A DNA stretch of 64,000 bases from Botryllus schlosseri. Its lineage: Eukaryota. Where the stretch lies: positions 23,438,001 through 23,502,000 of the forward strand of contig CM119371.1 of the NCBI GenBank assembly GCA_051294905.1, given 5' to 3'. Positions 11,061 through 64,000 of this stretch are shown here, piece after piece. The notes under the pieces are model-generated. The model did not search any database. It was not told the origin of the DNA and worked only from the letters and a program-made list of their open reading frames with translations. The position numbers and the translations under genes were made by a program. The stretch's first letter is position 1. Each line of letters opens with the position of its first letter.

Positions 11061-11139
11061 AGAATCAGTGAAGTAGACTATAAAATGCAACACACGATAT
11101 GACCTGTATTACACATAAACACAGTCATATTTATTGCAG

Positions 11140-25375: not shown

Positions 25376-25832
25376 AACGGCACACTGAAGGGATTTAAAC
25401 AGAATGAAAAGCAAAACCAGAAAGGCGAAGTATGACGCAACAATCAGAAATTACACATCATGAAGTCCGCAAAGTAACAATGGCAACAATAACAAACTTT
25501 GAAGTGTACGGTACTATAGTAACATAGCAATTTGAAACTAAACAATAATAAACACGAATTAGAGCGCACTAACGGGAAATTTGTAAGTTATGCAGAAAAT
25601 CTTTTTGTCTACATAAAATAGGCTTGGTCAATTGGATGATTGTTGATTCTAAGGCTTTCAAATGAACAAGGATCTGCTTCGCGCAATGACAGTAAACATT
25701 TGGTCATTATAGTTTTGAGCACAAGAAGGGTTCTCACTTAAATGTTGGCCAATTGACGAAGCGTATGCTTGGTAATCGTCATAACAGTCGGTTTTTGCGG
25801 CTAATTTGCATTGTCGTGCGAACTCCGTGCGG

Positions 25833-27226
25833 CAGGGGTTCTCAACTCGCGGACCGCGGGCCGCATGCGTCCCACAGACGTTTGTTTATGTTGCGGCCCG
25901 CGACATCTTTCATTATGATCGCAATTATTAATGACAAGGTTAATATTAATTTAGCTACTTAGCTCTCTTATCGCATCGTCTCTGTTTCGCTTGATTACTC
26001 ATTTAGACGTGGTCTGATTTCATGATATATGCTCGAGTTAAGGTTGTTATTGTTTTGAATCTGTATTCGGCTGGACTCTAGTTCAAGTTAATCCCACTAC
26101 GTAGTAATTTTTTAAAGAGTGTTTCACTCGCCGCAAATGGTTTGAACGGTAACAAGAACAAGGAATGGGAAATTAAACGGCGAAAACTGGGTTTGTAACT
26201 CTGCGTGGAACAATCAATTTGATTTTGCAGATATAAATGGAAAACCGATGTGTCATATTTGTCGAAGAGCAGTTGTTGTAACGAAGCGTAGAAGCTTAAA
26301 ATGATACGACACTTTCGTCTGGAGTTATACATGTCGCCTGGTATTAGAAATTAACGTTGCCAGCTAGGTGTCAAGCCCAGCAATCCATATTTCAAGGCAT
26401 TGTTGAAATTGCCGATTACGTTACAGACGAATCGTTCAAAATTGCTGGGAATATCGCTAAGCTCAAGAATACTACTAGAGAATGTGTGATTTCAATAGAA
26501 CTATGCGAGTATTTGCTATTTCCGGAACTTAACAGCAAGAAAAACATCACCTGGCATACTTCGAAGCTACAGTTGTCTGATTCAACCGTGAATAAAAGAG
26601 TAACAGCAATATCAGTCGATCTTTTATCGCATTTTCTGAAACACGTTGCCGCGTAGACTACCGCAGCCTGGCAATGGACGAATTCACCGTCTACACATAC
26701 ATTACATAGCTGATTATCTGGGTGCATTTTATCAGAGTGGACAATCTGGACATATTTGTCGAGGAAATGCTGGCTGGGCAAACGAGGGAGGGGGATCAGC
26801 GAAAAACATCAACTTGACAAAGCTGACGTCTGTAACTAATGGTGCAGGGCCCCCGCTATGGAAATAAAGGAGAAGGGTTGATTGGTTTGCTCAGAAATGG
26901 CCCCGAACGCCAGACTTCTTCTGATATCACTGAGAGCTCAATGTGATAATGGCCTCTGTAACGAAAAAGTTACCGTAACTTTATACTTACTTGCTCGCTC
27001 ACGCATGCTCGCTTACGCATTGAACCAGAGAGTTCGGTTCTCTGGTGGTAGAGTTTAAAGGCTGGTGCATATACCGGCCCATATAGGCCTACGACTGCTG
27101 AATAGGCCTCACAGTAGCTGAAATTTAACAGTAGCCCACAAATACATGGTAATAATGTTCTGCGGCCCGCCGCCTCTTTTGCTGTTAAAATATGGCCCGT
27201 TATACAAGGGAAATTGAGAACCCCTG
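25833..27226 (+). mobile_element. hAT-Charlie derivative (same family as 5816-7560)
   Basis: TIR CAGGGGTTCTCAA; TSD CCGTGCGG/CCGTACGG; remnant KLQLSDSTVNKRVTAISVDL. Confidence 0.85.
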
Positions 27227-27688
27227 CCGTACGGTCATTTGCGCAAGTTTTTGAGCGAATCAATTTCGGAATATGTTGCGTTATCCGTTAAAACAATCGT
27301 TGTGATGTACGTCCCACATACCTACTATCACAAATTGATTCGCTCAAAAACTTGCGTAAATGACCGTACGGAGTTCGCACGACAATGCAAATTAGCCGCA
27401 AAATCCGACTGTTATGACGATTACCAAGCATACGCTTCGGCAATTGGCCAACATTTAAGTGAGAACCCTTCTTGTGCTCAAAACTATAATGACCAAATGT
27501 TTACTGTCATTGCGCGAGGCAGATCTTGTTTCATTTGAAAGCCTTAGAATCAACAATTCAACAATCATCCAATTGACCAAGCCCATTTTATGTAGACAAA
27601 AATACTTTCTGTATAACTTACAAATTTCCCATTAGTGCGTTCTAATTCGTGTTTGTTATTGTTTAGTTTCAAATTGCTATGTTACTAT

Positions 27689-33581: not shown

Positions 33582-35808
33582 TAGGGGTGGTGTGAACCTA
33601 TAAAAGGTTCAGGTTCGTGTGAACGCGAACCTTTTTGAAAGGTTCTGTGTGAACGCGAACGCGAACCTCATAACGTAACGTGATGGTATATTGCTAATTC
33701 CAACCCTACATTTCAGTGAAGTAGTAGCCTATATTAATGTACACAATACCTAGTGACGACTCTGGCCTAATGTATCAACTGGGGCAATAAAATGATATAA
33801 TAATTCTATAAAATCAATATTTTCCGTCGCTTTGCCAACAATTACGATGACGATATGCAAGAGAATGTTAGCTTACGTTTTAACGGTCTAGGCCTGTCTG
33901 GGTATTTCTACTGTTGTGTTCTTGATCTTGTTTGAACAATAACTCAATGCGACGAGGTTGCAATAAGAAATAAGTATATTATCAGCAGTATAACTTTACG
34001 GCAGCGACACGATCCAGAGTGCAGTTAAATGAAAGACCCAGAGAACAGAACACAAAGGGTATAAATACAAGCGCGACACACGAGGAAATAATGATTGGCG
34101 GTAATTACTAGTCATATAGAAATTAGGAGTTGAACAACACTGAACGTAAATGCACGAACATAACAGTCCTCCCCTGTAAGTTAAAGGGTTGCCTGCATTT
34201 ACGTAGGTTTATAGAAATCGGTGGGTTTCCTATTCCTAAGAGGATATCGTCTGCCCGACGTACGGGCAGGACTAGCTGCAGGACCTTGTGCCCGGTTCCT
34301 AACCAATGGTTGCTCAGCTTGTGACTGTTGAGGCTGAGCAATTCCCTGCGTGGCTGTATTATTGCCAGCTGAAATCAAGCGTGGTTGGAGTTGGTTCTTG
34401 TTCCTTCTCCAATACCCATGATCTGTTTTTATAATGTACACAACACGCCCCCGTATTTTCGTCACCACGTCAGCAACCCACTTTGGTCCGCGTCGGTAAC
34501 TGCGAGCGTAAACAGAGGAACCAATCTCGAAATGAGTGCGGATTGTCTAGGCGTAACGGGTTTCGATTTATCGAAGGGCAAGCACAAACTTAACAAATTA
34601 AGCGGCTGCCGACCATGTAAAATCTCAGCAGGCGTTTTCCAGTCTATGCCCGGGTGCGGTGCACATCGGTAAGTAGCGAGAAGTGTTTGGAGCACGAAGT
34701 TGAGATCTTTCCACCCGTCGCAATTTTTTATCAGTCCAGCTTTCAAAGCCTGGACGAATCGCTCTGCTTCCCCGTTCGAGGCAGAGTGAAAAGACGGTGA
34801 TACGATATGGCTGATCGCCAAATTAGAACAAAACGTATCGAATTCATCCGATGTGAATTGCGGCCCGCCATCCATGACAAATGTTATGGGCAAGCCTTCG
34901 ATAGAGAAGACTTCCCTCAAAGCGTTGACCACACACAAGGTTGTGGTAGAACCGACATTCATTACTTTAACGAAAGGATATTTCGAATGCGCATCGACGA
35001 TGACAAGAAACATCTTATTTTTTATTGGACCTGCGAAATCCAAGTGAATCCGTTCAAAGCTTTCAGACGCTTTAGGCCATTCGCGATACTGACGATCAGG
35101 CGCTTTCATTACCTTACGGCAAGCGTCGAGATTTTCAATGTCGCGATTAATGGAAGGCCATGCGATGTAACGTCGAGCCATCTGCTTTATTTTCACGATA
35201 CCCCAATATCCTTCCTGCAACAATGATAAGACTCGCGAGCGAAGTGACCGCGGAATTACTACGCGCTGAAAACCATCAATATTGAGCATGACTATGTCTT
35301 CGTGCAGAGAAAGCGAATGTTTGCGAGTCGAAAACTAAGAAAAATCATCAATGTGCGTATTTGGATTCCAATTACCATGAGTGACAGATAATTTTACTAG
35401 TTTCATGGTTTTGTTGAATAAGCAACATTCGCTGACGACAGTCTATTTTGCACTTGATATTCTGTGATATACGATCAAGCTCACAGTAAAGAGTAACTAC
35501 CTATTCACTAACGGAAAGCTGAATATTTTGAGCAATTGTAACAAAGCAAGTAATATTTTGAGATTGGCAAGGTGCATGCTCGTTTAGTATAGATTCTTGT
35601 ATGCTGCCAGCGCCGAATACGTAGAATGGCCCGGAGTTGAAATGCAATAAATTTCAACCAAAGATGTTTTAATGTAGTGAAATCTGTGATATATGAAAAT
35701 GTTTGATGGGGTAGAACCTACCAGGGTGCGATTGTGAATGTGAACCTCTAAATTTTTAACGTTCACACACAGAACGCGAACGTGGACCTCACGTTCACTC
35801 AATCCCTA
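33582..35808. mobile_element. hAT-type element with TAGGG termini hosting the Gypsy remnant; related end at about 2540-2762
   Basis: TAGGGGTGGTGTGAAC...GTTCACTCAATCCCTA; TSD GAAATTAG/GAAATTAA; interrupts the duplicated intron sequence. Confidence 0.7.
33912..35420 (-). mobile_element. Truncated Ty3/Gypsy LTR retrotransposon: integrase remnant, PPT and 3' LTR (33912-34165)
   Basis: ORF 34462-35289 with RIHLDFAGP, GPQFTS, SNGEAERFV and a degenerate HHCC region; PPT AGGGGAGGAC next to a TG...CA LTR. Confidence 0.9.
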
Positions 35809-36144
35809 GAAATTAATATTAATATTAATATCAAGTGATATGCAAATCCGTTCTGAAAATTCCACCACTGACAATACAGCTTGTAGACTACGTTGTTGGA
35901 TTTCAAAGATTATAATGCTAAACAATCATAATTTCATTGAAGAAGTTGATAAGGGCACGAACTGTGTGGTGTGAGAAGAATAAATGAGCAATTTCGTAGA
36001 CATGACGCTTATTACTTGTCATCATTTTCTCGACATTTTTGACACTGGAATGGACATATAATCAATGTTGGAATCATTTTGTGCTATCTAAGTAGGTAGC
36101 TCTGCACAAAAAAACATCTACTGTTCTCAAACTTGATTCAGATA

Positions 36145-38349
36145 GCGCGATTCTTATCATTCTTTGACCTAGTTCGATTTTGCCGATATCTCGCATCAAT
36201 TGACGTGATCAAAGGGGATATTAATTTATCTAAAAACGAACGAAATTTGAATCGGCTAGTCATTGACCGCTTCGGAAGTGTCGCTTGTCCCGATGAGAAG
36301 AATATCATCAACTTATCGGACTACGCACTGTCCTCGACCGAAAAGTTTGCTCTATCGCATGGGTTAAATTTCTGTATTCCACCAATTAATGTCAAGAGTG
36401 AGGAGGTTTTCGCCGAATTTGAGATTCTATTAGCTCAATTGAAGCACCGTGAAGCAAAATCAATCGATGAAGTGCCAGCTCTCAAAGCAAGACTTACGGA
36501 TTTGGCACATTCGTATTGTGGATGTCCAGTTGACAAAGCGGATTTCTTGATGACAAAGGAATGCTTCCGTGCCATAAAATCTCTGCGAAGCAACCCCGAT
36601 ATTCACATAACGAAAGCAGATAAAGGTGCCGGCGTGGTAATTTTAAACAAGAAAGATTACATTGCAAAGATGATGACTATTCTCGAGTATAAATCCAAAT
36701 TCGTTGTACTTGGCCCGGTCTCGGAATACGACAATACTGCAAAGTCTGAAAGACGACTACAACGACGCCTTCGAATCTTGAAAAACGATGACGTAATATC
36801 CACTGAAGAATATGACTACATGAGGCCTGTTGGCTCCCAAAGACCGCGTATGTATGGATTACCAAAGACGCATAAAAACGATTTGCCACTCAGACCGATA
36901 CTCAGCATGACTTGGTCAATGCAACAGAAGTTGGCGAAGTGGTTGATCAACATACTGGAACCTGTTCGCGAACTTTACGGGTCGCATTGCGTACGCAATT
37001 CTTTTACCTTCGCTGATGAGATGCGTCGCTCACAGCTATCCGCGCGCGATAATTTCCTAGGCTCATTCGACATAAAGAGCCTTTTCACCAACGTACCACT
37101 AAATGAGACGTTGAATATTTGCGCTGATGCTCTATATAACGGTAAGCTAATACCCCCTCCTTTCTCGAGAGCTACCTTCATTGAATTGATGAGAAACGCT
37201 GTGTGTTCTGTTGAATTTAGTTTCAACAATATCATGTTCCGACAATCTGATGGTGTAGCAATGGGATCACCATTGGGTCCTATTCTAGCCAATATATTTG
37301 TAGGATTTCATGAAGATAAGCTCTTCTCTTCTTGTATTAGACCGCCCTTATCATACCATCGCTATGTCGATGACACGTTCGTGATATTCGATAATGAATC
37401 TGACTGTGATAGTTTCCTGGAAAATTTAAACAAACTACATCCAGCATTGCAATTCACGTCGAAAAAAGAAATTAACAGTCGCCTGGCATTCCTTCACGTT
37501 CTTGTGGAGAAACGGGATGGCAAATTCCTTACCTCCGTTTATAGGAAGCCCACATTTTCGGGTCATTACCTTCGATGGAGCTCTTTCAGCCCAAAAAGTC
37601 GTAAAATCAATTTAATCGGCACCTTGGTTCACCGGGCGTTGATGATTTGTTCCGAGGTCAAATTGAATAATGAACTTGACTATATCCGTAAAATTTTCAT
37701 TGACAACGGATACCCAGAGTATGTTATTAAGCGGACAATAAGTAAAAAGTTCAGTCATTGGAATGATACCATACCAGAAGAAACCCCCGAAGTAATTTCT
37801 CGTGAAAATAGGGATGTGTACATTCATCTTCCTTGGATTGGCCCGGTTTCTTATCGATTTGAGAAACAGATAACTTCAGCAGTCTACCGCTATTATCCAG
37901 CGGTGAAAACCAATGTTGTTTTTAACACGATACCAATGTTTCCTGCAACCCGAAGGGACGTTCTCCCGGCTATAAAACAAAGCAACGTAATTTATGAATT
38001 CAAGTGCCACTGCGATTGTCGGTACGTAGGGAGAACTTCCAAACGGTTGCAGGACCGTATCAAAGAACACATTCCACCGTCTGTCAAATCTTATATCTCA
38101 AATTCGCAGCTTAACAATCCGCTTGTTCTTGAACATAACCAGGCCATGGGTCAAAAATCTTCTATAGGCAAACATTTACTAGAAAATCATACGTGTGCTG
38201 CTAACTATCACGAGGACATGTTCTCTATATTGGCTAAGGGTCGCAATTTATTTCATTTGTCTGTTCTTGAGTCCACCATCATCACTATGAGCAAACCTAG
38301 TCTATGCCAACAGAAAGAATTTGTGTATCATTTGAAAATCGCGCATTAA
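36145..38349 (+). CDS. Penelope reverse transcriptase + GIY-YIG endonuclease (uninterrupted frame, native start missing)
   Basis: YGLPKTHK, PLRPILS, SFDIKSLFTNVP, GVAMGSPLGPILANIF, RYVDDTF; NVIYEFKCHCDCRYVGRT..LQDRIKEH. Confidence 0.9.
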   Translation, partial: ARFLSFFDLVRFCRYLASIDVIKGDINLSKNERNLNRLVIDRFGSVACPDEKNIINLSDYALSSTEKFALSHGLNFCIPPINVKSEEVFAEFEILLAQLKHREAKSIDEVPALKARLTDLAHSYCGCPVDKADFLMTKECFRAIKSLRSNPDIHITKADKGAGVVILNKKDYIAKMMTILEYKSKFVVLGPVSEYDNTAKSERRLQRRLRILKNDDVISTEEYDYMRPVGSQRPRMYGLPKTHKNDLPLRPILSMTWSMQQKLAKWLINILEPVRELYGSHCVRNSFTFADEMRRSQLSARDNFLGSFDIKSLFTNVPLNETLNICADALYNGKLIPPPFSRATFIELMRNAVCSVEFSFNNIMFRQSDGVAMGSPLGPILANIFVGFHEDKLFSSCIRPPLSYHRYVDDTFVIFDNESDCDSFLENLNKLHPALQFTSKKEINSRLAFLHVLVEKRDGKFLTSVYRKPTFSGHYLRWSSFSPKSRKINLIGTLVHRALMICSEVKLNNELDYIRKIFIDNGYPEYVIKRTISKKFSHWNDTIPEETPEVISRENRDVYIHLPWIGPVSYRFEKQITSAVYRYYPAVKTNVVFNTIPMFPATRRDVLPAIKQSNVIYEFKCHCDCRYVGRTSKRLQDRIKEHIPPSVKSYISNSQLNNPLVLEHNQAMGQKSSIGKHLLENHTCAANYHEDMFSILAKGRNLFHLSVLESTIITMSKPSLCQQKEFVYHLKIAH

Positions 38350-39300: not shown

Positions 39301-39316
39301 AAAATGTATATATACA

Positions 39317-40924
39317 TTAGGGTTGTCCATAATTTGGAAAATCTCAAAATTTATGCGTATCCATGTCTCATTCTATAGATTATAGTTAAAAAACGTCAAT
39401 GAACCTGCAATAAGCTCACGGGAAAGTCGTTAATATTTGTCTAAATGCGTTTGAAAGTAGATGCCGTAGAGTGGGCGTGTCAGCGACCATAGAACGGCAA
39501 GCAGACTAGTAATCACGCAATCACGGCGTTTGATTAGCTAATCTGCTACGCTTCAATGATCACAACATTGGCGGCTTGTTGATCAGCCGTTCAAGGAGTC
39601 GGCTAACGGCGGTGATTATGTAAGCGCATTATAGGTTGGTCCGCCAATAATGATTTAGGATTAATTCAGAACATGTTAATTAACGAAACACATGATGAAC
39701 AAAGAACAGCAGCTTCACAATATCTATGACTGGATGGCGGATTGTGAAGGTAACCGTTGTAGCCCCTACGCCTTGATTTCATTGGTGGAAAGAACAAAAA
39801 CAAGCGGAAAAATATTGCAAAGGCGCTTATGCAAGTGGCAAACGAATTTCTAGTCTCAGAGGGGATGTACCATCATTGAATACAAATATAAAGCTTGACA
39901 TTGACACTACTTTGTCTGATCTTATTAGGCTGTTGTCGTGGTATATAATTGAAGTCTTGAATGCTGTAAGGGCTGGATGAATCGGTCATTTATGCTTGGC
40001 ACTTGTCAGATTATTACAGCATAATGAATCATACCCGCAAGTGTTGTCAAAGTTCTCACTGATGCCGCGAAAAGAGGTCTAAAGATAAGCACAGGCTATG
40101 CTGGTAGTACCAGCAAAAAGACAGTTTGCTTGCATTGCTTAGCATGACATTAATGAATCTTAGATCATTACCGGCTGCATCACTACTTATGCTTGAATCA
40201 AACCAGACATGGACGCAAAAAAGGATGTATTGAAGCGGTGTGGTAGTTACCCTCTTCTTCTGAAATCCAATGTAAGCTACCTGGTCGGCCCACATATCTT
40301 CTGAGCATAAAGGATTGTGTCCAGAATCCATATTACATTGTATGCCGCACCAGTTCGGCGATGTCTAATATGCCTTACCTGCACCCAGAAAACAGGACCA
40401 CTTGGTGTAATCTCAAACATATCAGATATGTAGGCTATTTCTGGTATCTGTACTTACTTCTATAAGGTCACAATCATTCGCTGTTTCACCTCTGTCATGC
40501 CTGCAATAGGCTATTGTTGCACTAAAGCTATCGGTACATAGTTTAACACTAAAACATTCAATGACCAGATGTCTCATTTTATTATTAAATCACCAACGTA
40601 CAATGCGCTTACAGAATCATTGCCGTTAGCGAACTGCTCGAACTAGTATAAGCGCATAATCAGCAAGCCGCTGTGGTCGTGACGATTCAAGCATTGCTGA
40701 TTAACCAATCAAGAGACGTGATTTCGTTATTACTAGTTTCTCGCCGTTCTATGGTCGCTAACACGCCCACTCCGCTGCAGCTACTTTCAAACGTATTTAG
40801 ACAAATGTTAACGACTTCCCCGTGAGCTTATTGCTGGTTCATTGATGTTTTTTATCAATAATCTACAGAATGAGGCATGGATACGCATCTTTTTTGAGAT
40901 TTTCCAAATTATGGACAGCCCTAA
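39317..40924. mobile_element. Non-autonomous DNA transposon with about 320-bp imperfect TIRs (hATm-like)
   Basis: TTAGGGTTGTCCATAATTTGG...CCAAATTATGGACAGCCCTAA flanked by TATACA; remnants VWFDSSISSDAAGNDLRFI (minus) and TTLSDLI..SWYII (plus). Confidence 0.7.
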
Positions 40925-41370
40925 TATACATATTTAAATACATCTGTTTATGGCGTGAGAGAACAGGTGAAGGGGTGCATGCGTTCGTAACATCAGCTTT
41001 TAGGGATCGCGAAATACAAAAATATTGAAGAAACGTCGCAGAGTTTCATTAAATACCCTAATTTCACTGCTATTTCCAGCTACGAATTAGACAGCTCCAG
41101 GCGCAAATAAAGTAAGATAATGGTCACTTGATTGAATATTATCCAATTTGACCCAATTTTTTTCGAAAGTTGCGAGTGCATTTTTGTGATCAAATTGCTC
41201 AGCCTAATAATTAAATCATAAACATAAACCGTGAAGGCTGTCACATTTCTACGTATATTGGTGATTCATGTTTCGCGACCTTTATACAATGAGGAAGTAT
41301 AGAAACATTAATCTTCTCTACAGAGTTGTTGTAAAGTAATCTGTAATTGTGAAGAACGCTTATTTTGAAG

Positions 41371-42985: not shown

Positions 42986-44502
42986 CAGTGGTTCCCAACC
43001 AGGGAGGAATTCCCCCCTTGGGGAAAATTTTTGCAATTTTTAGGGAGTTATTCCACTTTATAATTGTAACGGATTTCTCAAATTGTTCATGTCCGAACTG
43101 TCATGTAGTCAACCAGTTATATCCGAGCGTATGCTCCTTATAGCTGTTTTTTGCTGAAAGTATGTTCAAATGCTATTTGAAATCTCTTTTTCACATACGA
43201 ATTCCCCCTTGTTGTTTTTTAAACTAGTTTTTTTAAACTAAATTTTGTAGGACAGCGACGGCCTCTCAATCAAATATGTTTTAAGCGAACAAATGTCTTG
43301 CCGAATCTATCACAACAAAGCATCTAATGAAAGTATTTATCTTATATTTTCAAGTCAACATTTTCAGACAGTGACAGAATATTCTAACGTCACCGATTCA
43401 AGTCAAAGAGATCGCTAGCCCTGCTTTATTTTTAGTGAACAGCTACCCGACCGAAAAAAGATATGTTAAACTCGGTGCAATGTTGCTGAAACGGAATGGT
43501 TGTCCTAACTTTCCACGAGCTCCAGCAGGAAATCTGATCACTTGTATGTTATATATCAGGGCTGTAACCAAGTCACGAGGCTCCGAGTCACAAGTCAATC
43601 TCACTTTCATAGTTTTGACTCGAGTCAAGTCGAGTCATTTTCAATTCTACATTGAGTCAAGTCCGAGCCCAAGTCACCGAGCAGAGGGTCGAGTCCGAGT
43701 CATTATATTATGACTCGAGTCCGAGTCCAAGTCATTGTGTTGACTGCTCAGTTTCCAGTTGAAGTCTTGTTAAACCCACTTTTTATAACTCTTTTTGGTG
43801 ATATTGAATGATTTTGATTTACACTATACTAATTTTCCTCACTTTGAGCAGTTTCTTGTCGCATTTTCAAGTACCAGGACCAATATACAAAATTCCAATA
43901 CGAAGGCCACTTTACTGTTCTTCGAAATTACAATGGAATGTCGGTCTTGTCCGTCTTATAGTCTCGAGTCATGTGGCTTGGTTCCAGTCATGCACAATGA
44001 CTCGAGTACAAGTCGAGTCAATACACAGATTGTCTCTAGTCGAGTCGAGTCATTTCCCTATTTTGAAAAAATGGTGACTCGAGTCCGACTCGAGTCTGGT
44101 CAATCGTGCTATATATGAAAGCACCAATATTATTGTCCAAATGCATACGCAAACTTGAGAAAAAAATCGCGAGACCAGTAAATTTATGCATGCTGATTTT
44201 TCACAGCAGTTATATTAGCGATTGGTGCATGGTAAGCTGAAACACACAAATGGAAGTGTGGGGGTCTGTTGAATCAAGCCTTCCAGAATTTGTTTGATTG
44301 GGACCAATACCATTGTTTTTGGAGGTCTACAAAGTCCCGCTAGAAACAAACACTCCGTACCGCCAATCTTATTCTTCGGTCAACGGGTGTTTGCGCGGTA
44401 AAAATGATCTTTTTTAATCATCGGCAGATTTCTCCTAAGGGGGTATTTTGGCTCAAATTTAGGCCAAGAGAGGCAGGAGATGAAAAAGGTTGGGAACCAC
44501 TG
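42986..44502. mobile_element. hAT-Charlie MITE with a nested GACTCGAGTC-family MITE (43557-44096)
   Basis: TIR CAGTGGTTCCCAACC; TSD GCCTAGGT/GCCTAAGT. Confidence 0.8.
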
Positions 44503-52056: not shown

Positions 52057-52601
52057 CAGGGTTGTAATGACTCGAGTCATGACTCGACTCGAGTCAAAAT
52101 TTTCTGATGACTCGAGTCAATTTTTCAAAATACGGAGATGACTCGACTCGAGTCAATCTGTGTATTGACTCGACTTGGACTCGAGTCATCGCACATGACT
52201 CGGACCAAGTCATTGACTCGAGACTCAGACGACCAAGACCGACATTTCATTGTAATTTCGTAGAATTGAGAAGTAACCATCCTACTGGGATTTCGTCTGA
52301 TTGGTACTGGTACTTGAAAATGCGACCAGAAACTGCTAAAAGGGAGGAAAATTAGTATATTATAAATGCTAAACATTCGATATCACCAAACATAGTTGTA
52401 TAAAGTGAGTTTAACAAGACTTTAACTGGAAACTGAGGAGTCAACATAATGACTTGGACTCGGACTCGAGTCATGATATCATGACTCGGACTTGACCCTC
52501 TGCTCGATGACTTGGACTCGGTGGTGAATTGGAAATGACTCGACTTGACTCGAGTCAAAATATTGAAAGTGAAATTGACTTGTGACTTGGTTACAACCCT
52601 G
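52057..52601. mobile_element. hAT-like GACTCGAGTC-family MITE
   Basis: TIR CAGGGTTGTAA...TTACAACCCTG; TSD CTAGAAGT/CAAGAAGT. Confidence 0.85.
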
Positions 52602-52832: not shown

Positions 52833-53310
52833 CTGATTTTGAAAATTCAGTAGTTGTAGTTCTAGTTGCTGATTTTGAAAATTCAGTAGTTGTAGTTCTA
52901 GTTGCTGATTTTGAAAATTCAGTAGTTGTAGTTCTAGTTCAGTGCTTCTCAACCGGAGGTCCGGGAAGCATTTTCAGGGGGTCCGCGAAGCCTCTAAATT
53001 TATACCAATGTTGATAACGTAATTTGTGTTTGTTTTTTTAATTCGGAAAATCACGAGGCCGTCTCGCTTCATTAAAAACTCCAAACTCACATCAACAGAA
53101 TGGCCGTCTGATATGAAATTTCCAGCTGTGAGACTCATTTTAATTGCTAAATTGCCAAGAGCCTACTGATACAAATATTTTCAAGAAAAGTCTTTTTTTT
53201 GCACGCTCCCGCGGGTCCTTGACGGTCCAAAAGGGGTCCGAGAAGACAAAAAGGTTGATAACCACTGTTGTAGTGGCTGATTTTGAAAATTCAGTAGTTG
53301 TAGTTCTAGT
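52833..53310. repeat. 36-bp tandem repeat (about 4 copies) interrupted by a hAT MITE at 52940-53267
   Basis: Unit CTGATTTTGAAAATTCAGTAGTTGTAGTTCTAGTTG; MITE ends CAGTGCTTCTCAACC...GGTTGATAACCACTG. Confidence 0.8.
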
Positions 53311-56300
53311 CTGGTTTCTACCTCGCCATCTCATCCGCGTAAGCGGTGTCTTACAAAATTACGAGAAGTGGCCCGTGCTACAAGTCGGCAAATACAGAAT
53401 GAAAAATAAATAATACCGGCCCGGTGTAAATGACCATAGTGGTAGACCAGTGTTTCATAACCGAGTCACGAGTCAATCCATATTTCTGATATGCCCCAAC
53501 AATTTCTACCAATAGAAAGTGTCAAAATTGCTCAATTAAATAGTTTCATAGACCTGGTACAGGCGTCGCATAGCTTTAGTAATGGATTGGAGCTCATGAG
53601 ATTGAAATACATACTTCATCGCGACTGAAATATATACTTCATCGCGACCAAAGCAGGCTGACTTGACAAGATTATTTTTAAAAGTATAAATCAAATGAGC
53701 AACACTTCGTGACACAAAGTCATGTTTATAACTTGTGCATTGGTAATATAAATTGTCCTATGTACTAAACCTATCTCGATATCATGATGATCTGAAGTCC
53801 GAAGATTTCATAGTAATATATCTTTCAGGTTTCTATTTCTCCATATCCAACGATGGTCTACAATTTGCAATGGAGCCTGCACTTGGATGGACTCGTCTTC
53901 TCAAAAAACATTGAAAGTTTTGATGAAGCACTTGCTCTTCTGATCGCAGCTCATTGGATATTTAACATCAAGTTTCAGAAGATTATCAAGCACACTCTCA
54001 CCTTCATTTCGTCATACCTGCTAAAGCTGCCTGGCGTAGAGCTGACAAATTCCGTTGTGAGGACTACCAATATGTTGCCATAAACAATGGAACTGTCATC
54101 ATAGTTATGTAGGGTTACCATACGGAGGTTCGAGCGGGTCATTCGGAAGTCGATTGTAAGTGCCTACTTTTAATTTTAGTCAAAACCACTAAATTTAAGT
54201 AAAAAGATGGTAATTCTGGAGTCATCACTTTCATTCAACACCAAAAGTTTTCCAGCAAAAAATAGCAAAATCTGCTGTCATTCTTGATCAACTAACTTTC
54301 CTGAATTGGTAAAATTGTCCTCCTTTTTGATTCCGTAATATGGTAACCCTACAGTAATGGCTGTTTGAATTCGCTTAATAAAATGCATGAAATACTATAC
54401 TTGTATGTTTTCAATTGGATTTGTATTTTTCGGTATTGCATATAGCGCAGCGATGTGTGGCAGCTGACAGATAGGTTGGGGTGGAAGGTATGTCCCCCAT
54501 ATAGGGTGGAGGGTATTCCCCCATATAGGGAGGAAGGTATTTCCACCATGATGGGGGTGGATTTTCATTCCACCATAAATGGTCAAAAGCGTGAACCACT
54601 TTTAATGGAGGAAATCTCCACCTTTTAGATTTACAGTGCGGGTGCCTCCGCTTTGGTTGCCTATTATCACCTGGTCGTAACCAGAGATGGCCACAGTCCG
54701 GTTCAGGAGCCGGAGCAGGATTTCAATGTTTTTTTTACCTGGCCGGACTGGATCCGGATTTCGAATTTGGGATGACGGTCGGATTTTAGGGTCTATCGAT
54801 TTGCGTAATCTATAACTCTACCATGAAATCAAAACGCATGCTACTAAGGATGACCTGATACTTGATTCGTGGCATAGGGACGATTCTTGGTTCACGTACA
54901 TTTTGTAAAATATTCCTTTGAATAAAAATAAATGAATAAAACATTTGTTACCACACTTCAAGTCACGGCTCACCGGCAAACCTCTCGCGGCACCTACGTT
55001 AAAATCACTGTTGTCGGGAAATTCATGTGACCATCATAAAGTTACTTTTTTACGTTGGAAAACGCCATTGTGACGTCATGTTGATAAAAGTCGCTCGCAG
55101 CCCTTGCCCCACCACCCGATATTGTCACGAGCCGCCACTGTATTTTACGCAAAATTCGGTGTTTTTACGCAAGACTCGGTCCTTATCGGAATAGATATTG
55201 TCCATTGATCTAATCGAACGCGGGAGGAAAGCGCACTATTACCATTTCCCAACGTATCTCGATAAAAATGAATGGCTGACGTATGAGAGAGGATAAGGAC
55301 GCCTTGCTATACACTTTTACACTGCTGTTGCCAGTGGCAGTGTCTCGAGTTCGACCAAAATTGGGTATCGTGATCTTGATCATGTGGTCTACTGCAAACG
55401 GTGTCTCGATATTACCCAATATTCGACATTGCTTAGCTCGAGTTGACTTGTTTATATTCCAATACAACCTTTCCGAAGTAGTAACCACTAGTGAACTTTT
55501 AAAATTCCCAAGTTGAAAATCGCTCTCCATCAACTTTACTGCAGTAATTAGGCTCGAGGCGTTAGATGTGCTCACGATTCTCAATGCTGTCATTCTGGGT
55601 ATTCCAGATTTCAATGAACTTGTCAATGAACATTTTTCAACTTTGAAATCACGCCGCGCGCAATAGGCCTACCGACACAAACGTTAAAATATGCAGGTAT
55701 GAACTACTGTACTTTTTACTGTACTCTTTTGAATAATTTGAAATACGTAAGCCTTTGTAGCTGCCCCGTTACGGTGTATACTCGTAGCAATGACGGGATC
55801 GCGAGTGTGTTACTGGCCTCGGGACCTCGTCAGTAGTAGTATAGTATAGATCGCTCGCGATTCGTAATGGGTTCTTATGGGCCCGCTGGTGACTCGCCGC
55901 GAAACTCGTGTTGGTGATTCGCCCTTTTTACTATAGGCGGTGGCGGTGATTCGCCTGTCATGTATTCTGACGCGGTCTCTGGTGACTCGCCATGTGTTCT
56001 TATGGGTGCGGCCGTGAATCGCTCTTTCGGGTATAGACATCTGTCGCACGGTGTTGAATATGCATCAAGTAAATAGGCACGTGGTTGGTCCTTAGTTAAT
56101 GTGTATATCCCAAATTATTATATATGACCGATTCGAGTTAATCCTAACGTTGACGGCGAGTGCGACTTTAATATATCGTTATTCTTATGGGCGCGGCGAT
56201 GATTCGTACTTTCGTTTATAGACTGCGGGTGGCATGTCGTACTTTCACCAAAAAGGGGGTGAAGTAGTTTGCTAAATCTAGGAATCAGTCGCTTGGTTTT

Positions 56301-56653
56301 AGTTTACCACAGAACCGGCGTAGACGGCGATTCGAATACCAACAATAGCCGCGTTCGCAACCTAACACTCCAAAAAGATGTGAAATATTCCCTACAAGCG
56401 CTCGCAAGATAACACATCAGAATAGCCATCTCTCGTGGTTTGATGTTACAAAGGTAGGAATTACGCACAAGTAATATTTTGGTAATTAGTTTACCACAGA
56501 GCCGACGTAGACGGCGATTCAAATATCGACAATAGCTGCGTTCACATACTAACACTTCAAAAAGGGGTGAAATATTTGTAAAACCCCGCGATCACTGACA
56601 AGATAATGTCTCGGACATAACCATCTTTCGCGACTTGGTGTCATAACCATACC

Positions 56654-59518
56654 GATCGCTCACGCGGTGAAATTTTAGTAATCAGTTTGTCACAGAACTT
56701 GATTTCGCTGGTAAGATTTAACAAGTAACGAATAACAGACCGCCAGTGTCGGTAACTTGAATAGCGACAAATTGTCACTTATTTCCGCTCTAACCCTAAT
56801 CCTCTGTGAAGTGAACGCTTATTCAAAAGGGTGTGATATAATTTTAAAATCCAACGACCACTCACCGGATAATGCTTCAGACATATCAATCCCTCATGCC
56901 CGCTCACAAGGTAATATTTCGGTAATTAGTTTGTCCCAGAACCGTCGCAGACGGTGATTCGAAAACCAACATTTTGTCACTTGCCTGCGATCGCTATATG
57001 TTTCACGCCTCGCGAATAGTGGCTGACTTTAGTTGCGTGATAAGATCCATGAAAATATTCAATCAATGTGTTAGTTTGTCAACTTGAGATGTAACTCACT
57101 ACACAAATCAAGTTGAATCGTATTTGAATGTATTGATTCGACCCAACTCAAAGCCTTTGACAAATCCTATTAACGCGATCTGTTGAATCGAACGTAACCT
57201 GAATATTACTGACGCCAACATTCACCCGCATCGGATCATTCACACATTCCACACCGCTGTTTTAACACTTATAGAATCAATACCAACTATCTCTAACCCG
57301 ATAATATTAAATCATTTTGGTAATTTGCCAACTTTAAATCCATTCACGGGATGTACTAAAGGTAAATCCAAATAATCCAGAATGAAATATTTGAACTTTG
57401 ACATTGCGCGAATTGAAATAGGTTTGACAAACATGACTACCAACTTTCACCCAGTCACATTTCAAGATTATACTTCGAAACAATCCTTGAAACTGACAAC
57501 TCTATTCACGACTCCGTTTCCGTTTGTAAAATAGAGTTTCAGAAATACTATCGCGATATTTTAATGTGTTACTACACACAATACAATCAATCAATGAAAT
57601 AACACCTGTTGTAAATATTTCTAACTTGACAACCACTTGTGCATACCGCGATCGACTTGTGACGCGATGAGTTAAATCGGAATATTTCAATCTATTTGTC
57701 GAAACCTTGAACAAACTATCAGGTTATTTTTTGTTGCAATCGAGTGAACGGAAATAGTATTACGTCTCAACATTTTAACATCTTCCCATACACAAAAGAG
57801 TAAATTACAAAAAACCTTGTCAAGTCAATCCGTTTGTAACTTACCCAACCAAAGCAAAAAGTATCCTTATGAAAAGTAGACGAGACTACGCGAGTAATCA
57901 CCACAATCAAAAATCCATAGCAAGTTTGGTTGTATTCATAGTCCACCAACTCGTATTTTTATTCAACCGTAAAAGTCGTTACTATTCCGCAAGACAAAGA
58001 AATTACTATGTGGTATATTTTGTAAGACAAAAGTAATTACTTCTCAGTGTCGGCGACTTGAGATTAACATATGTTTTGAGTATATGATATTTGAATGTCT
58101 GACCAACGTAGTTAAAAATTCATTTCTTACGATCGAACACCGGTGTTACATTGAAAGTTATCATACTGTAAACATAGGATTGACACATCGATTTGACATA
58201 TGTAATAGTTGATCATGACTTGATTATTAAATTATTCGCGTTAATTAGACCCGGCGTTGTGGTAAATGTTATGACAGCAACAAACTTTTCACTACCGTGG
58301 TTATTAACATATTGATTTGTAAAACTATACTTGTCTGAAATGTTCTTGATTTGAAAGATATTCCGTGTTGGTACAAATCACTCTGCGTATTACGGATATC
58401 AGAAAATATTTTTACAAATGTAGTTGTTTCCAGTAACCAAGACTAAAGATGACACAACAATTTTGTTATTCAAACATTGAACACCCGATGCAAGATGCTT
58501 TATTGGTCAAATTCGCAACGGGTAATTGAAACGACTAAGTGTAGAGTCGGTATATCACAGTGGCACGTCGTTACTATTGAATCCAGCAATTGATACGATT
58601 TATTGTCGGGATTTGTGACAGCGCATTGAAACATACACAACTTACAGAGTGTGAAAATATCACTTTGGGTATCGAGTACCGTTTGAAGCGTGCGATAAAT
58701 ACATAATTCCGTTCGCACTCTCTAAGGCGTTGTGAAGTCTACAGATTTACACTTCAAGACTTTGATCAACACAGAAGTAATTTGGAATATCTTTACTGGA
58801 CGCATCCTATTCTACTAGACTTGAGTAATACACAAAACTCATAGCATTAACAAAATCGCAATAGGCGCTACACTGAAATCTACAAAATGTGTTTGTATTG
58901 TTACTCAAAGTAGTGATCATAAATTATCATTTGAATAAGTAATTATAATCATAAAACCAAACTTGCGAAAGTCATTACCATAACAAAAGAATATTGTAGG
59001 TTGCTTGCTAAATGTATACCGGAAATATTTGTAGAACGCTCACGACCAAAGAAATCGGAAATTTCCCGCCATTGTCATTCATCAAAGTATATGTTGTCAC
59101 AATACTCAGCCCGTAAAAGATCTTACTTGTATGTGATTGAATCGCTGGTAATTAACTCGCTAAATCAAACCATAAGGAAATTTCACTCACTCATCGGATT
59201 ATGATATTAAACAGCGTCGCTTAATCGGCGTAGATCGTTTTTTCTAAATGCGAATCATACCCGCCCAACAGAAAACAATTTTCACTCACCTGATAATGAA
59301 ACCGAAGTCTTCATTCAATATTTTGTTTGTGTCAAATACTTTTCAATGAACACACTGGAGTGGTTGAGCTTTACATCATCAGACTGTCATCTGTAAATCA
59401 AGCTTACATCCGATTTGTAACTGTATTGTTTACCTAACCGAGTTGTATGCACAGTTTGATATTTTTGTCATTTAGTGATTGTTGAACATACCACCTTGAA
59501 ATACTGCGTTGATCATAA
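56654..59518. repeat. Left arm of giant inverted repeat (probably extends left to about 55832)
   Basis: Reverse complement of 61136-64000; mirrored ORFs all have coordinate sum 120654. Confidence 0.95.
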
Positions 59519-60948
59519 TTTCCATCATCATGATAAGCGAAGTACATTTGTTTTGAATTCATAACAATCGGCTTTTCTATGACATGATAAATTTTTGACA
59601 AGTTATGCTTAGAATATTGGTGCATACCGCGAAAAATAATATACCACTCATATTAATACTGTTACTCCATTCATCGGTATTTTTGTCGTTGTCGATTTTC
59701 AAACGAGTAAAATTTATTACTTGAGTTGTTCTGCTTACTATATTTAAATGTAAACTCGCCCGTCTTTCAACAACAAACAATGTTAAAAAAGTATGCAATC
59801 AAACACAACAAGTTTTACTGTAGGACACTAATTATTATCCCACATAACTCATTTCTTACCGAAGACATATGAAATATATTCATGTTACACGAAAATATTC
59901 GCTCATGCTACAAACCTGTACAGTGATTGGTGATACTTTCAAACTGTTTCGATACCTCAAGAACTTTATTGTCTGAATGGTTGGTCACGTATCTTAATAA
60001 TCAAGTAGTTCAACACAGAAGTAGTATTAACAGAAACACCAGAGTTGTTTACACAAAAGTTTGTATGTGTACAGTATGCGAATACCATGTGTAAGTCCAG
60101 CACAATTGCGCTATCCATCCGAGTTTAGTTAACACAATTTACGACACCGAGGTCGCCTCATCTTTCGTAAGACAACAAACCAAGGCTTCAGGATATGTCC
60201 ATGTCATAGCAATAAATCAGCTACTCCAACAACAGAGTACATATGTTTTCTAGTTACGGTACTTACATCTTACACACAAATCAATCTACTTTGCTAACGA
60301 AAAGTGCTGAGTCAACACATGGTTGTCCTCACAACAATACAACTAAAACATACTATCATACAAAATGGTCGTTATAGTTTGCACACCAATGGTACATCGT
60401 ACAAGTAACAAGTCTCGAGAATCCAGTTATTCAAAAAACGTGAAAGTATTTCTACACCAAGTCGTTATGTTGACGAAGAAGTATATTGTAATATCATGAT
60501 CGATTTGTATTCGTTGACCGCAAAATGTCACTACTCTAAATAATTATTTTTCACTCAAACACAAAAACCTACTTGTCGCCATTCGTTTTCATCAAGCACG
60601 AGTTCAAGAAACTTACTTACTACGACAGGAATTGTTATTTTTATGTTGTGTAAATAGGTAATAATTAATTTTAGTAACACTATATCAACATCATGGAGTT
60701 GTGCGAATAGATTTACACGTGGTCTTGTGGTTTTGATCGAAGTACACAGCACGGTCTAATGTAGAGTCATCTCTATTGTACAGCAACTCGGTAATCGAAA
60801 CGCATTCATTAACATTTAAACAGCGATCTTGTTTCATCACACGAAAAATATGTTCACTATCGCGATAATCCTTTTCACACTCGTAATAGTATACCAACAG
60901 CTACCGGCGACAACGTTTAACAATACCAACGACACTAAACATACGATA

Positions 60949-61135
60949 CCTACCCAAGTAAAATTACCATTTTCACCTGGAGGTCAGCCGTTACCTGAGT
61001 AAAAATACCATTGTCCTTTGGGGATTTATCGTTTACTCAGAGTAACAATACATTTTCACTTGGGGGTCTACCGTTTCCTAGAGTAACAAACCCCTTTTCC
61101 TTTGGAAATCTATTTTTCCCTGGGTAACAAACCTT
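60949..61135. repeat. Degenerate tandem repeat of about 41 bp (about 4.5 copies) at the spacer/right-arm junction
   Basis: Recurring GAGTAA(A/C)AATACCATTTTCAC(C/T)TGG(A/G)GGTC..CCGTT-like units. Confidence 0.7.
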
Positions 61136-64000
61136 TTATGATCAACCCAGTATTTCAAGGTGGTATGTTCAACAATCACTAAATGACAAAAATATCAAAC
61201 TGTGCATACAACTCGGTTAGGTAAACAATACAGTTACAAATCGGATGTAAGCTTGATTTACAGATGACAGTCTGATGATGTAAAGCTCAACCACTCCAGT
61301 GTGTTCATTGAAAAGTATTTGACACAAACAAAATATTGAATGAAGACTTCGGTTTCATTATCAGGTGAGTGAAAATTGTTTTCTGTTGGGCGGGTATGAT
61401 TCGCATTTAGAAAAAACGATCTACGCCGATTAAGCGACGCTGTTTAATACCATAATCCGATGAGTGAGTGAAATTTCCTTATGGTTTTATTTAGCGAGTT
61501 AATTACCAGCGATTCAATCACATACAAGTAAGATCTTTTACGGGCTGAGTATTGTGACAACATATACTTTGATGAATGACAATGGCGGGAAATTTCCGAT
61601 TTCTTTGGTCGTGAGCGTTCTACAAATATTTCCGGTATACATTTAGCAAGCAACCTACAATATTCTTTTGTTATGGTAATGACTTTCGCAAGTTTGGTTT
61701 TATGATTATAATTACTTATTCAAATGATAATTTATGATCACTACTTTGAGTAACAATACAAACACATTTTGTAGATTTCAGTGTAGCGCCTATTGCGATT
61801 TTGTTAATGCTATGAGTTTTGTGTATTACTCAAGTCTAGTAGAATAGGATGCGTCCAGTAAAGATATTCCAAATTACTTCTGTGTTGATCAAAGTCTTGA
61901 AGTGTAAATCTGTAGACTTCACAACGCCTTAGAGAATGCGAACGGAATTATGTATTTATCGCACGCTTCAAACGGTACTCGATACCCAAAGTGATATTTT
62001 CACACTCTGTAAGTTGTGTATGTTTCAATGCGCTGTCACAAATCCCGACAACAAATCGTATCAATTGCTGGATTCAATAGTAACGACGTGCCACTGTGAT
62101 ATACCGACTCTACACTTAGTCGTTTCAATTACCCGTTGCGAATTTGACCAATAAAGCATCTTGCATCGGGTGTTCAATGTTTGAATAACAAAATTGTTGT
62201 GTCATCTTTAGTCTTGGTTACTGGAAACAACTACATTTGTAAAAATATTTTCTGATATCCGTAATACGCAGAGTGATTTGTACCAACACGGAATATCTTT
62301 CAAATCAAGAACATTTCAGACAAGTATAGTTTTACAAATCAATATGTTAATAACCACGGTAGTGAAAAGTTTGTTGCTGTCATAACATTTACCACAACGC
62401 CGGGTCTAATTAACGCGAATAATTTAATAATCAAGTCATGATCAACTATTACATATGTCAAATCGATGTGTCAATCCTATGTTTACAGTATGATAACTTT
62501 CAATGTAACACCGGTGTTCGATCGTAAGAAATGAATTTTTAACTACGTTGGTCAGACATTCAAATATCATATACTCAAAACATATGTTAATCTCAAGTCG
62601 CCGACACTGAGAAGTAATTACTTTTGTCTTACAAAATATACCACATAGTAATTTCTTTGTCTTGCGGAATAGTAACGACTTTTACAGTTGAATAAAAATA
62701 CGAGTTGGTGGACTATGAATACAACCAAACTTGCTATGGATTTTTGATTGTGGTGATTACTCGCGTAGTCTCGTCTACTTTTCATAAGGATACTTTTTGC
62801 TTTGGTTGGGTAAGTTACAAACGGATTGACTTGACAAGGTTTTTTGTAATTTACTCTTTTGTGTATGGGAAGATGTTAAAATGTTGAGACGTAATACTAT
62901 TTCCGTTCACTCGATTGCAACAAAAAATAACCTGATAGTTTGTTCAAGGTTTCGACAAATAGATTGAAATATTCCGATTTAACTCATCGCGTCACAAGTC
63001 GATCGCGGTATGCACAAGTGGTTGTCAAGTTAGAAATATTTACAACAGGTGTTATTTCATTGATTGATTCTATTGTGTGTAGTAACACATTAAAATATCG
63101 CGATAGTATTTCTGAAACTCTATTTTACAAACGGAAACGGAGTCGTGAATAGAGTTGTCAGTTTCAAGGATTGTTTCGAAGTATAATCTTGAAATGTGAC
63201 TGGGTGAAAGTTGGTAGTCATGTTTGTCAAACCTATTTCAATTCGCGCAATGTCAAAGTCCAAATATTTCATTCTGGATTATTTGGATTTACCTTTAGTA
63301 CATCCCGTGAATGGATTTAAAGTTGGCAAATTACCAAAATGATTTAATATTATCGGGTTAGAGATAGTTGGTATTGATTCTATAAGTGTTAAAACAGCGG
63401 TGTGGAATGTGTGAATGATCCGATGCGGGTGAATGTTGGCGTCAGTAATATTCAGGTTACGTTCGATTCAACAGATCGCGTTAATAGGATTTGTCAAAGG
63501 CTTTGAGTTGGGTCGAATCAATACATTCAAATACGATTCAACTTGATTTGTGTAGTGAGTTACATCTCAAGTTGACAAACTAACACATTGATTGAATATT
63601 TTCATGGATCTTATCACGCAACTAAAGTCAGCCACTATTCGCGAGGCGTGAAACATATAGCGATCGCAGGCAAGTGACAAATTGTTGGTTTTCGAATCAC
63701 CGTCTGCGACGGTTCTGGGACAAACTAATTACCGAAATATTACCTTGTGAGCGGGCATGAGGGATTGATATGTCTGAAGCATTATCCGGTGAGTGGTCGT
63801 TGGATTTTAAAATTATATCACACCCTTTTGAATAAGCGTTCACTTCACAGAGGATTAGGGTTAGAGCGGAAATAAGTGACAATTTGTCGCTATTCAAGTT
63901 ACCGACACTGGCGGTCTGTCATTCGTTACTTGTTAAATCTTACCAGCGAAATCAAGTTCTGTGACAAACTGATTACTAAAATTTCACCGCGTGAGCGATC
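61136..64000. repeat. Right arm of giant inverted repeat (runs off the window)
   Basis: Near-identical to the left arm, with about ten substitutions seen by eye and no indels. Confidence 0.95.

What the first reader, a model, noticed from the sequence alone, without database searches (positions are those of the whole stretch)
55832..64000. Giant near-perfect inverted repeat, possibly a copy-back defective Polinton/foldback element
Seen: arms 56654-59518 and 61136-64000 (at least 2865 bp each, about ten substitutions, no indels) surround a 1617-bp spacer, with no recognisable protein. AGTAGTAGTATAG begins at 55832, where a repeat-rich segment starts. Known: Polinton/Maverick termini start with AG in short tandem repeats (for protein-primed replication) and make 6-bp TSDs, but their TIRs are usually well under this size. 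Inference: an element of about 9 kb whose right end was made by template-switch copying of the left end, like viral copy-back defective genomes. Prediction: the right terminus lies at about window position 64822 and is followed by CTCGTC.
Basis: partly seen in the sequence, partly recalled or inferred. Interest (0 to 1): 0.7.

Follow-up and report, generated by a model that had tools for sequence, protein, structure and literature searches.

The report
Centre-deleted palindromic Maverick-ended repeat copy
This is a real, young, gene-less piece of mobile DNA built as a mirror image of itself; it belongs to a very abundant repeat family, has lost its middle, and starts with the end signature of virus-like Maverick/Polinton transposons, whose enzymes it probably borrows.

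Summary
The inverted repeat is real: arms 56654-59518 and 61136-64000, 10 substitutions, no gaps. No gene was found in any frame. Contigs of three public DNA runs show abundant family sequence from just after an AGTAGTAGT end at 55832. The 1.6-kb "spacer" is covered at least as deeply as the arm, and the right arm begins in the middle of a tandem-repeat unit. So the spacer is most likely unpaired arm left by an off-centre deletion in a longer palindrome. At 12 of 12 listed arm sites where this copy departs from the family majority, both arms carry the same letter: one arm was copied from the other. The right end and target-site duplication lie outside the window and were not tested; no helper element could be checked. 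The scan found such 13-16 kb palindromes, and centre-deleted copies, before on other DNA of this genome; I could not confirm identity by sequence. Verdict: probably a helper-dependent Maverick satellite copy; a copy-back origin or a foldback transposon is not excluded.

The parts
55826..55831 (+). CTCGTC, candidate left copy of a 6-bp target-site duplication. If the true end is one AGT further in (55835), the candidate is 55829-55834.
   Evidence: Sequence. Right copy lies outside the window; untested.
55832..55840 (+). AGTAGTAGT, Maverick/Polinton-type left end
   Evidence: Matches the (AGT)2 end motif in PMC8097293 (passage). Summed contig depth in X1 is 50 at 55716 and an implied 18,000 over 55832-55903, so family sequence starts between 55717 and 55903.
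55851..56223 (+). Subterminal short degenerate direct repeats (35-47 nt motifs)
   Evidence: Families D4, D6, D7, D8.
56284..56971 (+). Subterminal longer repeats, 187-nt period near 56299-56696 with a further partial copy near 56905-56971; varies between family copies
   Evidence: joints that skip 175-630 nt here in family contigs (table 5).
55832..59518 (+). Left arm, 3687 nt; the mirror is verified for 56654-59518 only
59519..61135 (.). Unpaired 1617-nt stretch; abundant family sequence that continues the left arm, most likely inner arm that lost its partner
   Evidence: Median summed depth 1.34, 1.54 and 1.55 times that of the arm in X1, X4, X13. A diverged contig crosses 59518/59519 in line (59440-59567, 12 other letters). 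No ATG frame above 63 codons overlaps it.
60956..61137 (+). Tandem array of four 41-43 nt units and a fifth unit cut after 16 nt
   Evidence: X4 contigs run on from 61063 with a different unit variant (table 7).
61120..61149 (.). Inner junction at 61135/61136: two letters fit either side; a 6-bp stem CTGGGT/ACCCAG spans it and includes one of the 10 arm mismatches
   Evidence: The stem is weak (-3.6 kcal/mol) and may be chance.
61136..64000 (-). Right arm, cut by the window end; predicted to run to about 64822

Best explanation
One recently inserted copy of an abundant gene-less DNA element that is normally a longer near-perfect palindrome and depends on a Maverick/Polinton helper. Shown: giant near-identical arms, no genes, abundant family sequence through arm and spacer, an AGT end, lineage-specific letters mirrored in both arms, a junction that cuts a tandem unit. 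Inferred: (1) the helper's protein-primed polymerase starts at the AGT end and displaces a strand that folds back on itself, so one arm serves as template for the other and the arms are reset to identity at each round; (2) the helper's integrase inserts the product with a 6-bp duplication; (3) after insertion the long palindrome broke near its centre and was repaired with an off-centre deletion, which removed the original loop, the inner end of the left arm and more of the right arm (4.0-5.5 kb if the parent was 13-14.5 kb, a size taken from earlier notes) and left 1.6 kb of arm unpaired; (4) the 10 substitutions are drift since the last reset.
For: Arms and divergence. No coding signal. Depth step at the AGT end and deep cover of 55904-61135 in 3 of 3 DNA runs, by the listing three studies. 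Spacer depth is not half the arm's, as a true once-per-element loop would give (ratios 1.34-1.55). No drop in depth at 59518; a diverged contig crosses it. Fifth tandem unit cut at the junction. None of the 15 joints shown is a strand change at 61135. Mirrored letters at 12 of 12 listed arm sites; at two of them the depth left for this copy's letter is only 21.5 and 26.9, about three times a single-copy contig. End motif as in PMC8097293. Off-centre deletions are reported at most palindromic transgene junctions (PMC8701086, passage). Strand displacement by a Polinton polymerase is reported (PMC5499653, passage).
Against: The right end, the target-site duplication and any helper were not seen. 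Summed contig depth is stated by the tool not to be a copy number. Only 40 of 661 variant rows, 15 of 175 joints and 24 of 2744 loose ends were shown, chosen by support, so the missing strand-change joint and the 12 of 12 rest on a selected subset; a contig over the junction may also have been counted as running over the end of the laid stretch. The in-line contig at 59518 fits a 9-kb subfamily as well. The longer parent is known only from earlier AI notes, and two sequence look-ups found no look-alike. The X1 contig over the left junction runs to 55870 at single-copy depth, 9 nt further than expected if another identical end existed (inference from 31-letter words). A six-letter end motif is weak alone: AGTAGT occurs 23 times on the + strand of the window.
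Confidence: 0.6

Rival explanations
1. Copy-back before insertion: while a family member was being copied outside the chromosome, the polymerase left the template in the tandem array at 61135 and resumed on its own new strand at 59518, giving a 9-kb asymmetric snap-back molecule that was then inserted and may have founded a subfamily.
For: Same final layout as the deletion model. Mirrored letters. Two-letter overlap and a 6-bp stem at the junction. Asymmetric snap-back genomes with a single-stranded loop exist in AAV (PMC8235507, passages).
Against: No strand-change joint at 61135 among the 15 joints shown, the weakest-supported of which have summed depth near 100 where family depth exceeds 200,000, so no sign of an amplified subfamily. 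Earlier notes report centre-deleted copies of several lengths (8.3, 9.3, 12.4 kb, unchecked).
Confidence: 0.2
2. A foldback-type cut-and-paste transposon (FB/Tetris kind, Mutator-related) with very long repeat-bearing arms; the AGT end is coincidence and the arms are kept alike by gene conversion.
For: Long arms with internal tandem repeats and a non-coding middle are the foldback layout (PMC4079207, passages; here). No helper was shown here.
Against: Tetris arms reach 1,735 bp with 8-10 bp duplications; these arms are at least 2865 nt. The family boundary coincides with AGTAGTAGT, which occurs only twice in 64 kb.
Confidence: 0.1
3. Local inverted duplication made in place (fold-back repair of a break inside a one-armed repeat copy), so the right arm is not an element end and symmetry stops short of, or runs past, 64822.
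For: Junction overlap and stem; the left-junction contig hints that no letter-identical second end exists in X1.
Against: It needs no family of palindromes, yet earlier notes report many in this genome (unchecked); symmetry holds without a gap to the window end.
Confidence: 0.06
4. Assembly artefact: fold-back chimeric reads or a wrong join between two family copies.
For: The family is very abundant and no listed contig spans the stretch or the inner junction.
Against: Ten evenly spread substitutions without homopolymer gaps are not what a folded read gives; rare letters shared by both arms are not what a join of two unrelated copies gives; the left junction stands with 0 differences over 186 nt in X1, though X1 may be the source sample.
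Confidence: 0.04

Closest known systems
Maverick/Polinton elements of animals (PMC8097293, passages; PMC3014272, passages; PMC6431247, passages)
   Same: Left end of the (AGT)2 type; long inverted arms; insertion in an animal genome.
   Different: No polymerase, integrase, ATPase, protease or capsid frames. Arms of at least 2865 nt against 46-1,447 bp in intact vertebrate elements. About 82% of the predicted length is arm. Right end and 6-bp duplication unseen.
Non-autonomous Polintons such as zebrafish Polinton-1N1_DR (name seen in one passage of PMC9341505; Kapitonov and Jurka 2006 recalled, not read)
   Same: Gene-less or gene-poor elements classed as Polinton-dependent exist.
   Different: Their structure could not be read here. 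I recall, without any call, that one zebrafish non-autonomous Polinton has arms of several kb; if true the palindromic form is already described and the novelty falls.
Foldback transposons, e.g. Tetris of Drosophila virilis (PMC4079207, passages)
   Same: Long arms holding tandem repeats, non-coding middle, no transposase in the copies.
   Different: Shorter arms (up to 1,735 bp), 8-10 bp duplications; no AGT end is described in the passages seen.
AAV snap-back defective genomes (PMC8235507, passages)
   Same: Self-complementary, one end region duplicated, asymmetric forms with a loop, replicate only with helper proteins.
   Different: Those keep part of the parent's genes and are packaged virus genomes; this has no trace of helper genes and is an integrated, abundant repeat.

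Membership tests
Maverick/Polinton (autonomous) | Encodes protein-primed DNA polymerase and retroviral-type integrase (definition in PMC5499653) | tested here: not met
   0 Pfam families in 6 of 6 read-through frames of 55832-61200, while the same call found RVT_1, NACHT and rve in 3 of 5 other frames of the window; longest frame 95 codons.
Maverick/Polinton (autonomous) | Capsid, ATPase and protease genes | tested here: not met
   No Maverick-specific profiles were on hand, so very decayed remains could be missed.
Maverick/Polinton (ends) | 5'-(AGT)2 ... (ACT)2-3' end motifs | tested here: inconclusive
   Left end met at the family boundary; right end outside the window.
Maverick/Polinton (ends) | Terminal inverted repeats | tested here: met
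   2865 of a predicted 3687 nt verified; longer than the 46-1,447 bp of intact vertebrate elements.
Maverick/Polinton (ends) | 6-bp target-site duplication | not testable with these tools
   No genome; loose ends at 55832 were not among the 24 of 2744 shown.
Non-autonomous Maverick derivative | Ends shared with a gene-bearing Maverick of the same genome | not testable with these tools
   No genome; no match of the element in the rest of the window by blastn or tblastx. Claimed only in earlier notes.
Non-autonomous Maverick derivative | Amplified as a gene-less family | tested here: met
   130,052, 8,331 and 1,251 contigs laid on 54000-61135 from X1, X4, X13 (flank repeats included), with depth far above the unique flank over all of 55904-61135; no copy number can be read from this.
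Foldback (FB/Tetris, Mutator-related) | Long arms with internal tandem repeats and a non-coding middle | tested here: met
Foldback (FB/Tetris, Mutator-related) | 8-10 bp target-site duplication | not testable with these tools
   Right flank outside the window.
Snap-back / copy-back defective genome | Self-complementary with one end region duplicated | tested here: met
   (for the part inside the window).
Snap-back / copy-back defective genome | Sequence is a piece of the helper's own genome, genes included | tested here: inconclusive

The most novel reading that the evidence does not exclude
The family is a natural satellite genome of an animal Polinton virus: a gene-less hairpin that replicates outside the chromosome by a fold-back route in which one arm templates the other at every round. 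The mirrored lineage-specific letters seen here would then be a genomic record of the never-observed Polinton replication intermediate, and centre-deleted copies like this one would be the host's palindrome repair acting on it.
Probability: 0.35. Interest if true: 0.75.

Novelty: new variant of a known kind. Interest (0 to 1): 0.48.

Why it matters
A 2016 paper says the Polinton life cycle still awaits experimental characterisation (PMC5499653, passage). A gene-less family whose two multi-kilobase arms share even rare private letters points to arm-to-arm copying during spread, and offers many natural copies on which to test replication models and find the minimal end sequences. It also matters for annotation: such copies look like assembly fold-backs or unique inverted duplications, and the apparent loop of a damaged copy is not the family's loop. 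This single copy is damaged and cut by the window, so it adds support for the pattern more than a new system.

Tried and rejected
Whole genome: none held, so the right end, the duplication, copy number and helper could not be read.

Genes: Pfam 0 of 6 frames, PHROGs 0 of 6, Rfam 0 matches in the window. Stop-poor stretches are at chance level (187 of 200 shuffles as good). The 91-residue loop gene and the arm gene of earlier notes are not present as open frames here: longest ATG frame wholly inside the element 63 codons, longest stop-free frame 95 codons.

Relatives elsewhere: the 23-letter end pattern had 0 matches in metagenome contigs. An internal 20-letter pattern had 1 (L021), which shares only 25 nt. 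An 18-letter end pattern had 20 matches in viral contigs; 20 of 20 share only 18-20 nt. All rejected as chance. No match of the element in the first 55.8 kb of the window.

Earlier notes: none near this place; none by sequence for arm or spacer; none by words for a described zebrafish form.

Expression: no RNA holder listed. In one RNA run, about 6 in 100 of it read, depth over the element was 0-8 on both strands, and 494 of 525 laid reads fitted only in part; no conclusion drawn.

Runs: 4 of 24 listed were laid. The other 20 were not and are not used as evidence.

Host: the NACHT protein's nearest clusters are animal, mostly chordate or cnidarian; the group was not settled.

Literature: searches listed no paper on palindromic gene-less Mavericks; searches gave background. 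The library lacks most subscription journals, and Kapitonov and Jurka 2006 was not read. No supplements were opened.
Full report
Observation. The arms differ by 10 substitutions (6 transitions, 4 transversions) and no gap, or 0.35% (95% interval 0.17-0.64%), spread evenly. The right arm is cut by the window end. AGTAGTAGT starts at 55832 after CTCGTC; its mirror position is 64822, which gives 8991 nt with 3687-nt arms. No genome is held for this window, so the right end and the predicted duplication stay unread.

Setting. The window is animal DNA: a NACHT-domain exon, a reverse-transcriptase element and an LTR integrase fragment lie upstream. No part of the element recurs in the first 55.8 kb.

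No genes. All six frames of 55832-61200, read through their stops, gave 0 Pfam and 0 PHROG families. The window has no Rfam match. The longest stop-free frame is 95 codons, and 165 of 200 local shuffles did as well. So this is not an autonomous Maverick, which by definition encodes a polymerase and an integrase (PMC5499653, passage). Maverick-specific profiles were not available, so very decayed remains could be missed.

It is a member of an abundant family. Twenty of 24 listed runs, from 9 studies, hold part of the stretch. I laid 4 of them on 54000-61135: three DNA contig sets and one RNA read set. In X1 the summed depth is 50 at 55716 and 79,000-496,000 in every bin from 55904 to 61135; X4 and X13 show the same step. 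The depth implied for 55832-55903 is about 18,000, 6,300 and 50, lower than the next bin but well above the unique flank. The boundary therefore lies between 55717 and 55903, around the AGT motif, which is the commonest end type of vertebrate Mavericks (PMC8097293, passage). The tool warns that summed depth is no copy number, and I use it only to compare places. One X1 contig covers the left junction (55685-55870) with no difference at depth 8.29; X1 may be the source sample.

The spacer is not a true loop. A loop present once per element should show about half the depth of an arm present twice. The spacer's median depth is 1.34, 1.54 and 1.55 times the arm's in the three DNA runs. Depth does not fall at 59518, and a diverged contig crosses that point in line. 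At the other side, the right arm begins inside the fifth unit of a 41-43 nt tandem array, cut after 16 nt with two letters fitting either side; X4 contigs carry another unit variant there. None of the 15 joints shown is a strand change at 61135. The simplest reading is that 59519-61135 is inner left arm whose partner was lost with the centre of a longer palindrome. Limits: 160 joints were not shown, the laid stretch ended at 61135, and the in-line contig also fits a 9-kb subfamily.

One arm was copied from the other. Of the 40 variant rows shown (of 661), 12 fall in the verified arm; at these 79-99.96% of X1 depth carries another letter than this copy. At 12 of 12 the two arms of this copy carry the same letter, and none is among the 10 mismatches. 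At 58560 and 58697 the depth left for this copy's letter is 26.9 and 21.5, about three single-copy contigs' worth, so these letters are rare or private and still mirrored. Arms that had drifted apart separately from a family ancestor would differ at such sites. This shows arm-to-arm copying after those changes arose. It does not tell replication from gene conversion, and the rows were chosen by support.

How it most likely works (0.6). A helper Maverick's protein-primed polymerase starts at the AGT end; such polymerases displace strands (PMC5499653, passage). A displaced strand of a palindromic element folds into a long hairpin, and one arm templates the other, which resets identity at each round. 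The helper's integrase inserts the product. In the chromosome the palindrome is unstable, and off-centre deletions are reported at most palindromic transgene junctions (PMC8701086, passage). Such a deletion gave the present layout. Steps shown: arms, mirroring, lack of genes, family abundance, left end motif, cut tandem unit. Steps inferred: helper, replication route, duplication, timing of the deletion.

Rivals. Copy-back during replication (0.2) gives the same layout, as in asymmetric AAV snap-back genomes (PMC8235507, passages). A weak 6-bp stem across the junction, which includes one arm mismatch, could be its trace or chance. A foldback transposon (0.1) fits the repeat-bearing arms, but Tetris has arms up to 1,735 bp and 8-10 bp duplications (PMC4079207, passages). 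A local inverted duplication (0.06) gains a little from the left-junction contig, which runs 9 nt further at single-copy depth than an identical second end would allow (inference). An assembly artefact (0.04) does not explain evenly spread substitutions without gaps or rare letters shared by both arms, but no listed contig spans the inner junction.

What the scan and the literature already hold. Earlier notes on other DNA of this genome describe many 13-16 kb Maverick-ended palindromes with arms of 6.3-6.8 kb, some with a 91-residue loop gene, and centre-deleted copies of 8.3, 9.3 and 12.4 kb. The notes gave me the idea of a longer parent before I laid the runs; those on deleted copies came after. 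They are unchecked AI notes, and two sequence look-ups returned nothing, so membership of that family is likely but not shown. If the parent was 13-14.5 kb, 4.0-5.5 kb are missing, and the absence of the loop gene here fits. In print, intact vertebrate Mavericks have arms of 46-1,447 bp; the anole survey reports no non-autonomous copies (PMC3014272, passages); nematode Polintons have 744-bp arms (10.1101/2024.01.15.575659, passages); a zebrafish non-autonomous Polinton is named in PMC9341505 (one passage). Searches listed no description of palindromic gene-less Mavericks, but the library is partial. I did not read Kapitonov and Jurka 2006, and I recall without any call that a zebrafish non-autonomous Polinton has arms of several kb.

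Verdict. A real feature, and a new variant of a known kind at most: a damaged copy of an abundant gene-less palindromic element with a Maverick-type left end. It works like a helper-dependent snap-back satellite; membership of the Maverick-dependent class is not established because the right end, the duplication and the helper could not be tested. Interest 0.48: the mirroring is a real clue to Polinton replication, but this copy is incomplete and the decisive features lie outside the window.

Noticed in passing
window 12101-13375 (+): 424-codon frame with a NACHT domain (Pfam E 4.5e-13) and a NOD2-type winged helix: an exon of an animal NLR-like immune gene.
   Followed up: partly
window 36100-38349 (+): 749-codon frame with a reverse transcriptase domain (RVT_1, E 3.1e-10). 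Its C-terminal part looks to me like a GIY-YIG nuclease, which would make it Penelope-like; that label is recalled and comes from no call.
   Followed up: partly
window 34462-35334 (-): Fragment of an LTR-retrotransposon integrase (rve, E 1.6e-09).
   Followed up: partly
window about 54476-55189 and 55141-55714: Two other repeats lie just left of the element: a very abundant one (summed depth up to 387,000 in X1) and a moderate one (about 9,000). Only about 117 nt of near-unique DNA separate them from the AGT end.
   Followed up: partly
window 55685-55870: The X1 contig over the left junction has 0 differences at depth 8.29 and ends at 55870, not near 55861 as expected if an identical end existed elsewhere. 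The first 9 nt of this end may be private, so the predicted right end may be off by a few letters (inference).
   Followed up: partly
window 56723-58800, run X13: A run labelled as another organism holds family contigs with only 2-3 other letters in 175-265 nt. Related species, mixed sample or label error cannot be told apart.
   Followed up: no
window 57552-57766, 58463-58781, 59930-60089: Other family copies lack stretches of about 205-213, 315 and 158 nt here, so subfamilies differ by internal gaps (table 5).
   Followed up: no
window 59950-60425: Deepest-covered part of the element in the DNA runs, with the highest RNA depth inside it (8.0 on one strand, 1.8 on the other, 59950-60187). No open frame; possibly the best-conserved part of the family.
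   Followed up: partly
window 25516-27688 and 39308-40933: Two smaller inverted-repeat elements with arms of about 320-340 nt (93% and 82% alike), probably ordinary non-autonomous DNA transposons.
   Followed up: no
window 10510-11061, 43556-44085, 52058-52590: Three copies of a roughly 500-nt repeat, 78-84% alike, in both orientations.
   Followed up: no
window 52833-52939: Three exact tandem copies of a 36-nt unit.
   Followed up: no
window 55832-61135: CpG observed/expected is 1.31 in the element and 1.07 in the rest of the window, and only 1 of the 6 arm transitions is at a CpG: no sign of methylation-driven decay.
   Followed up: no
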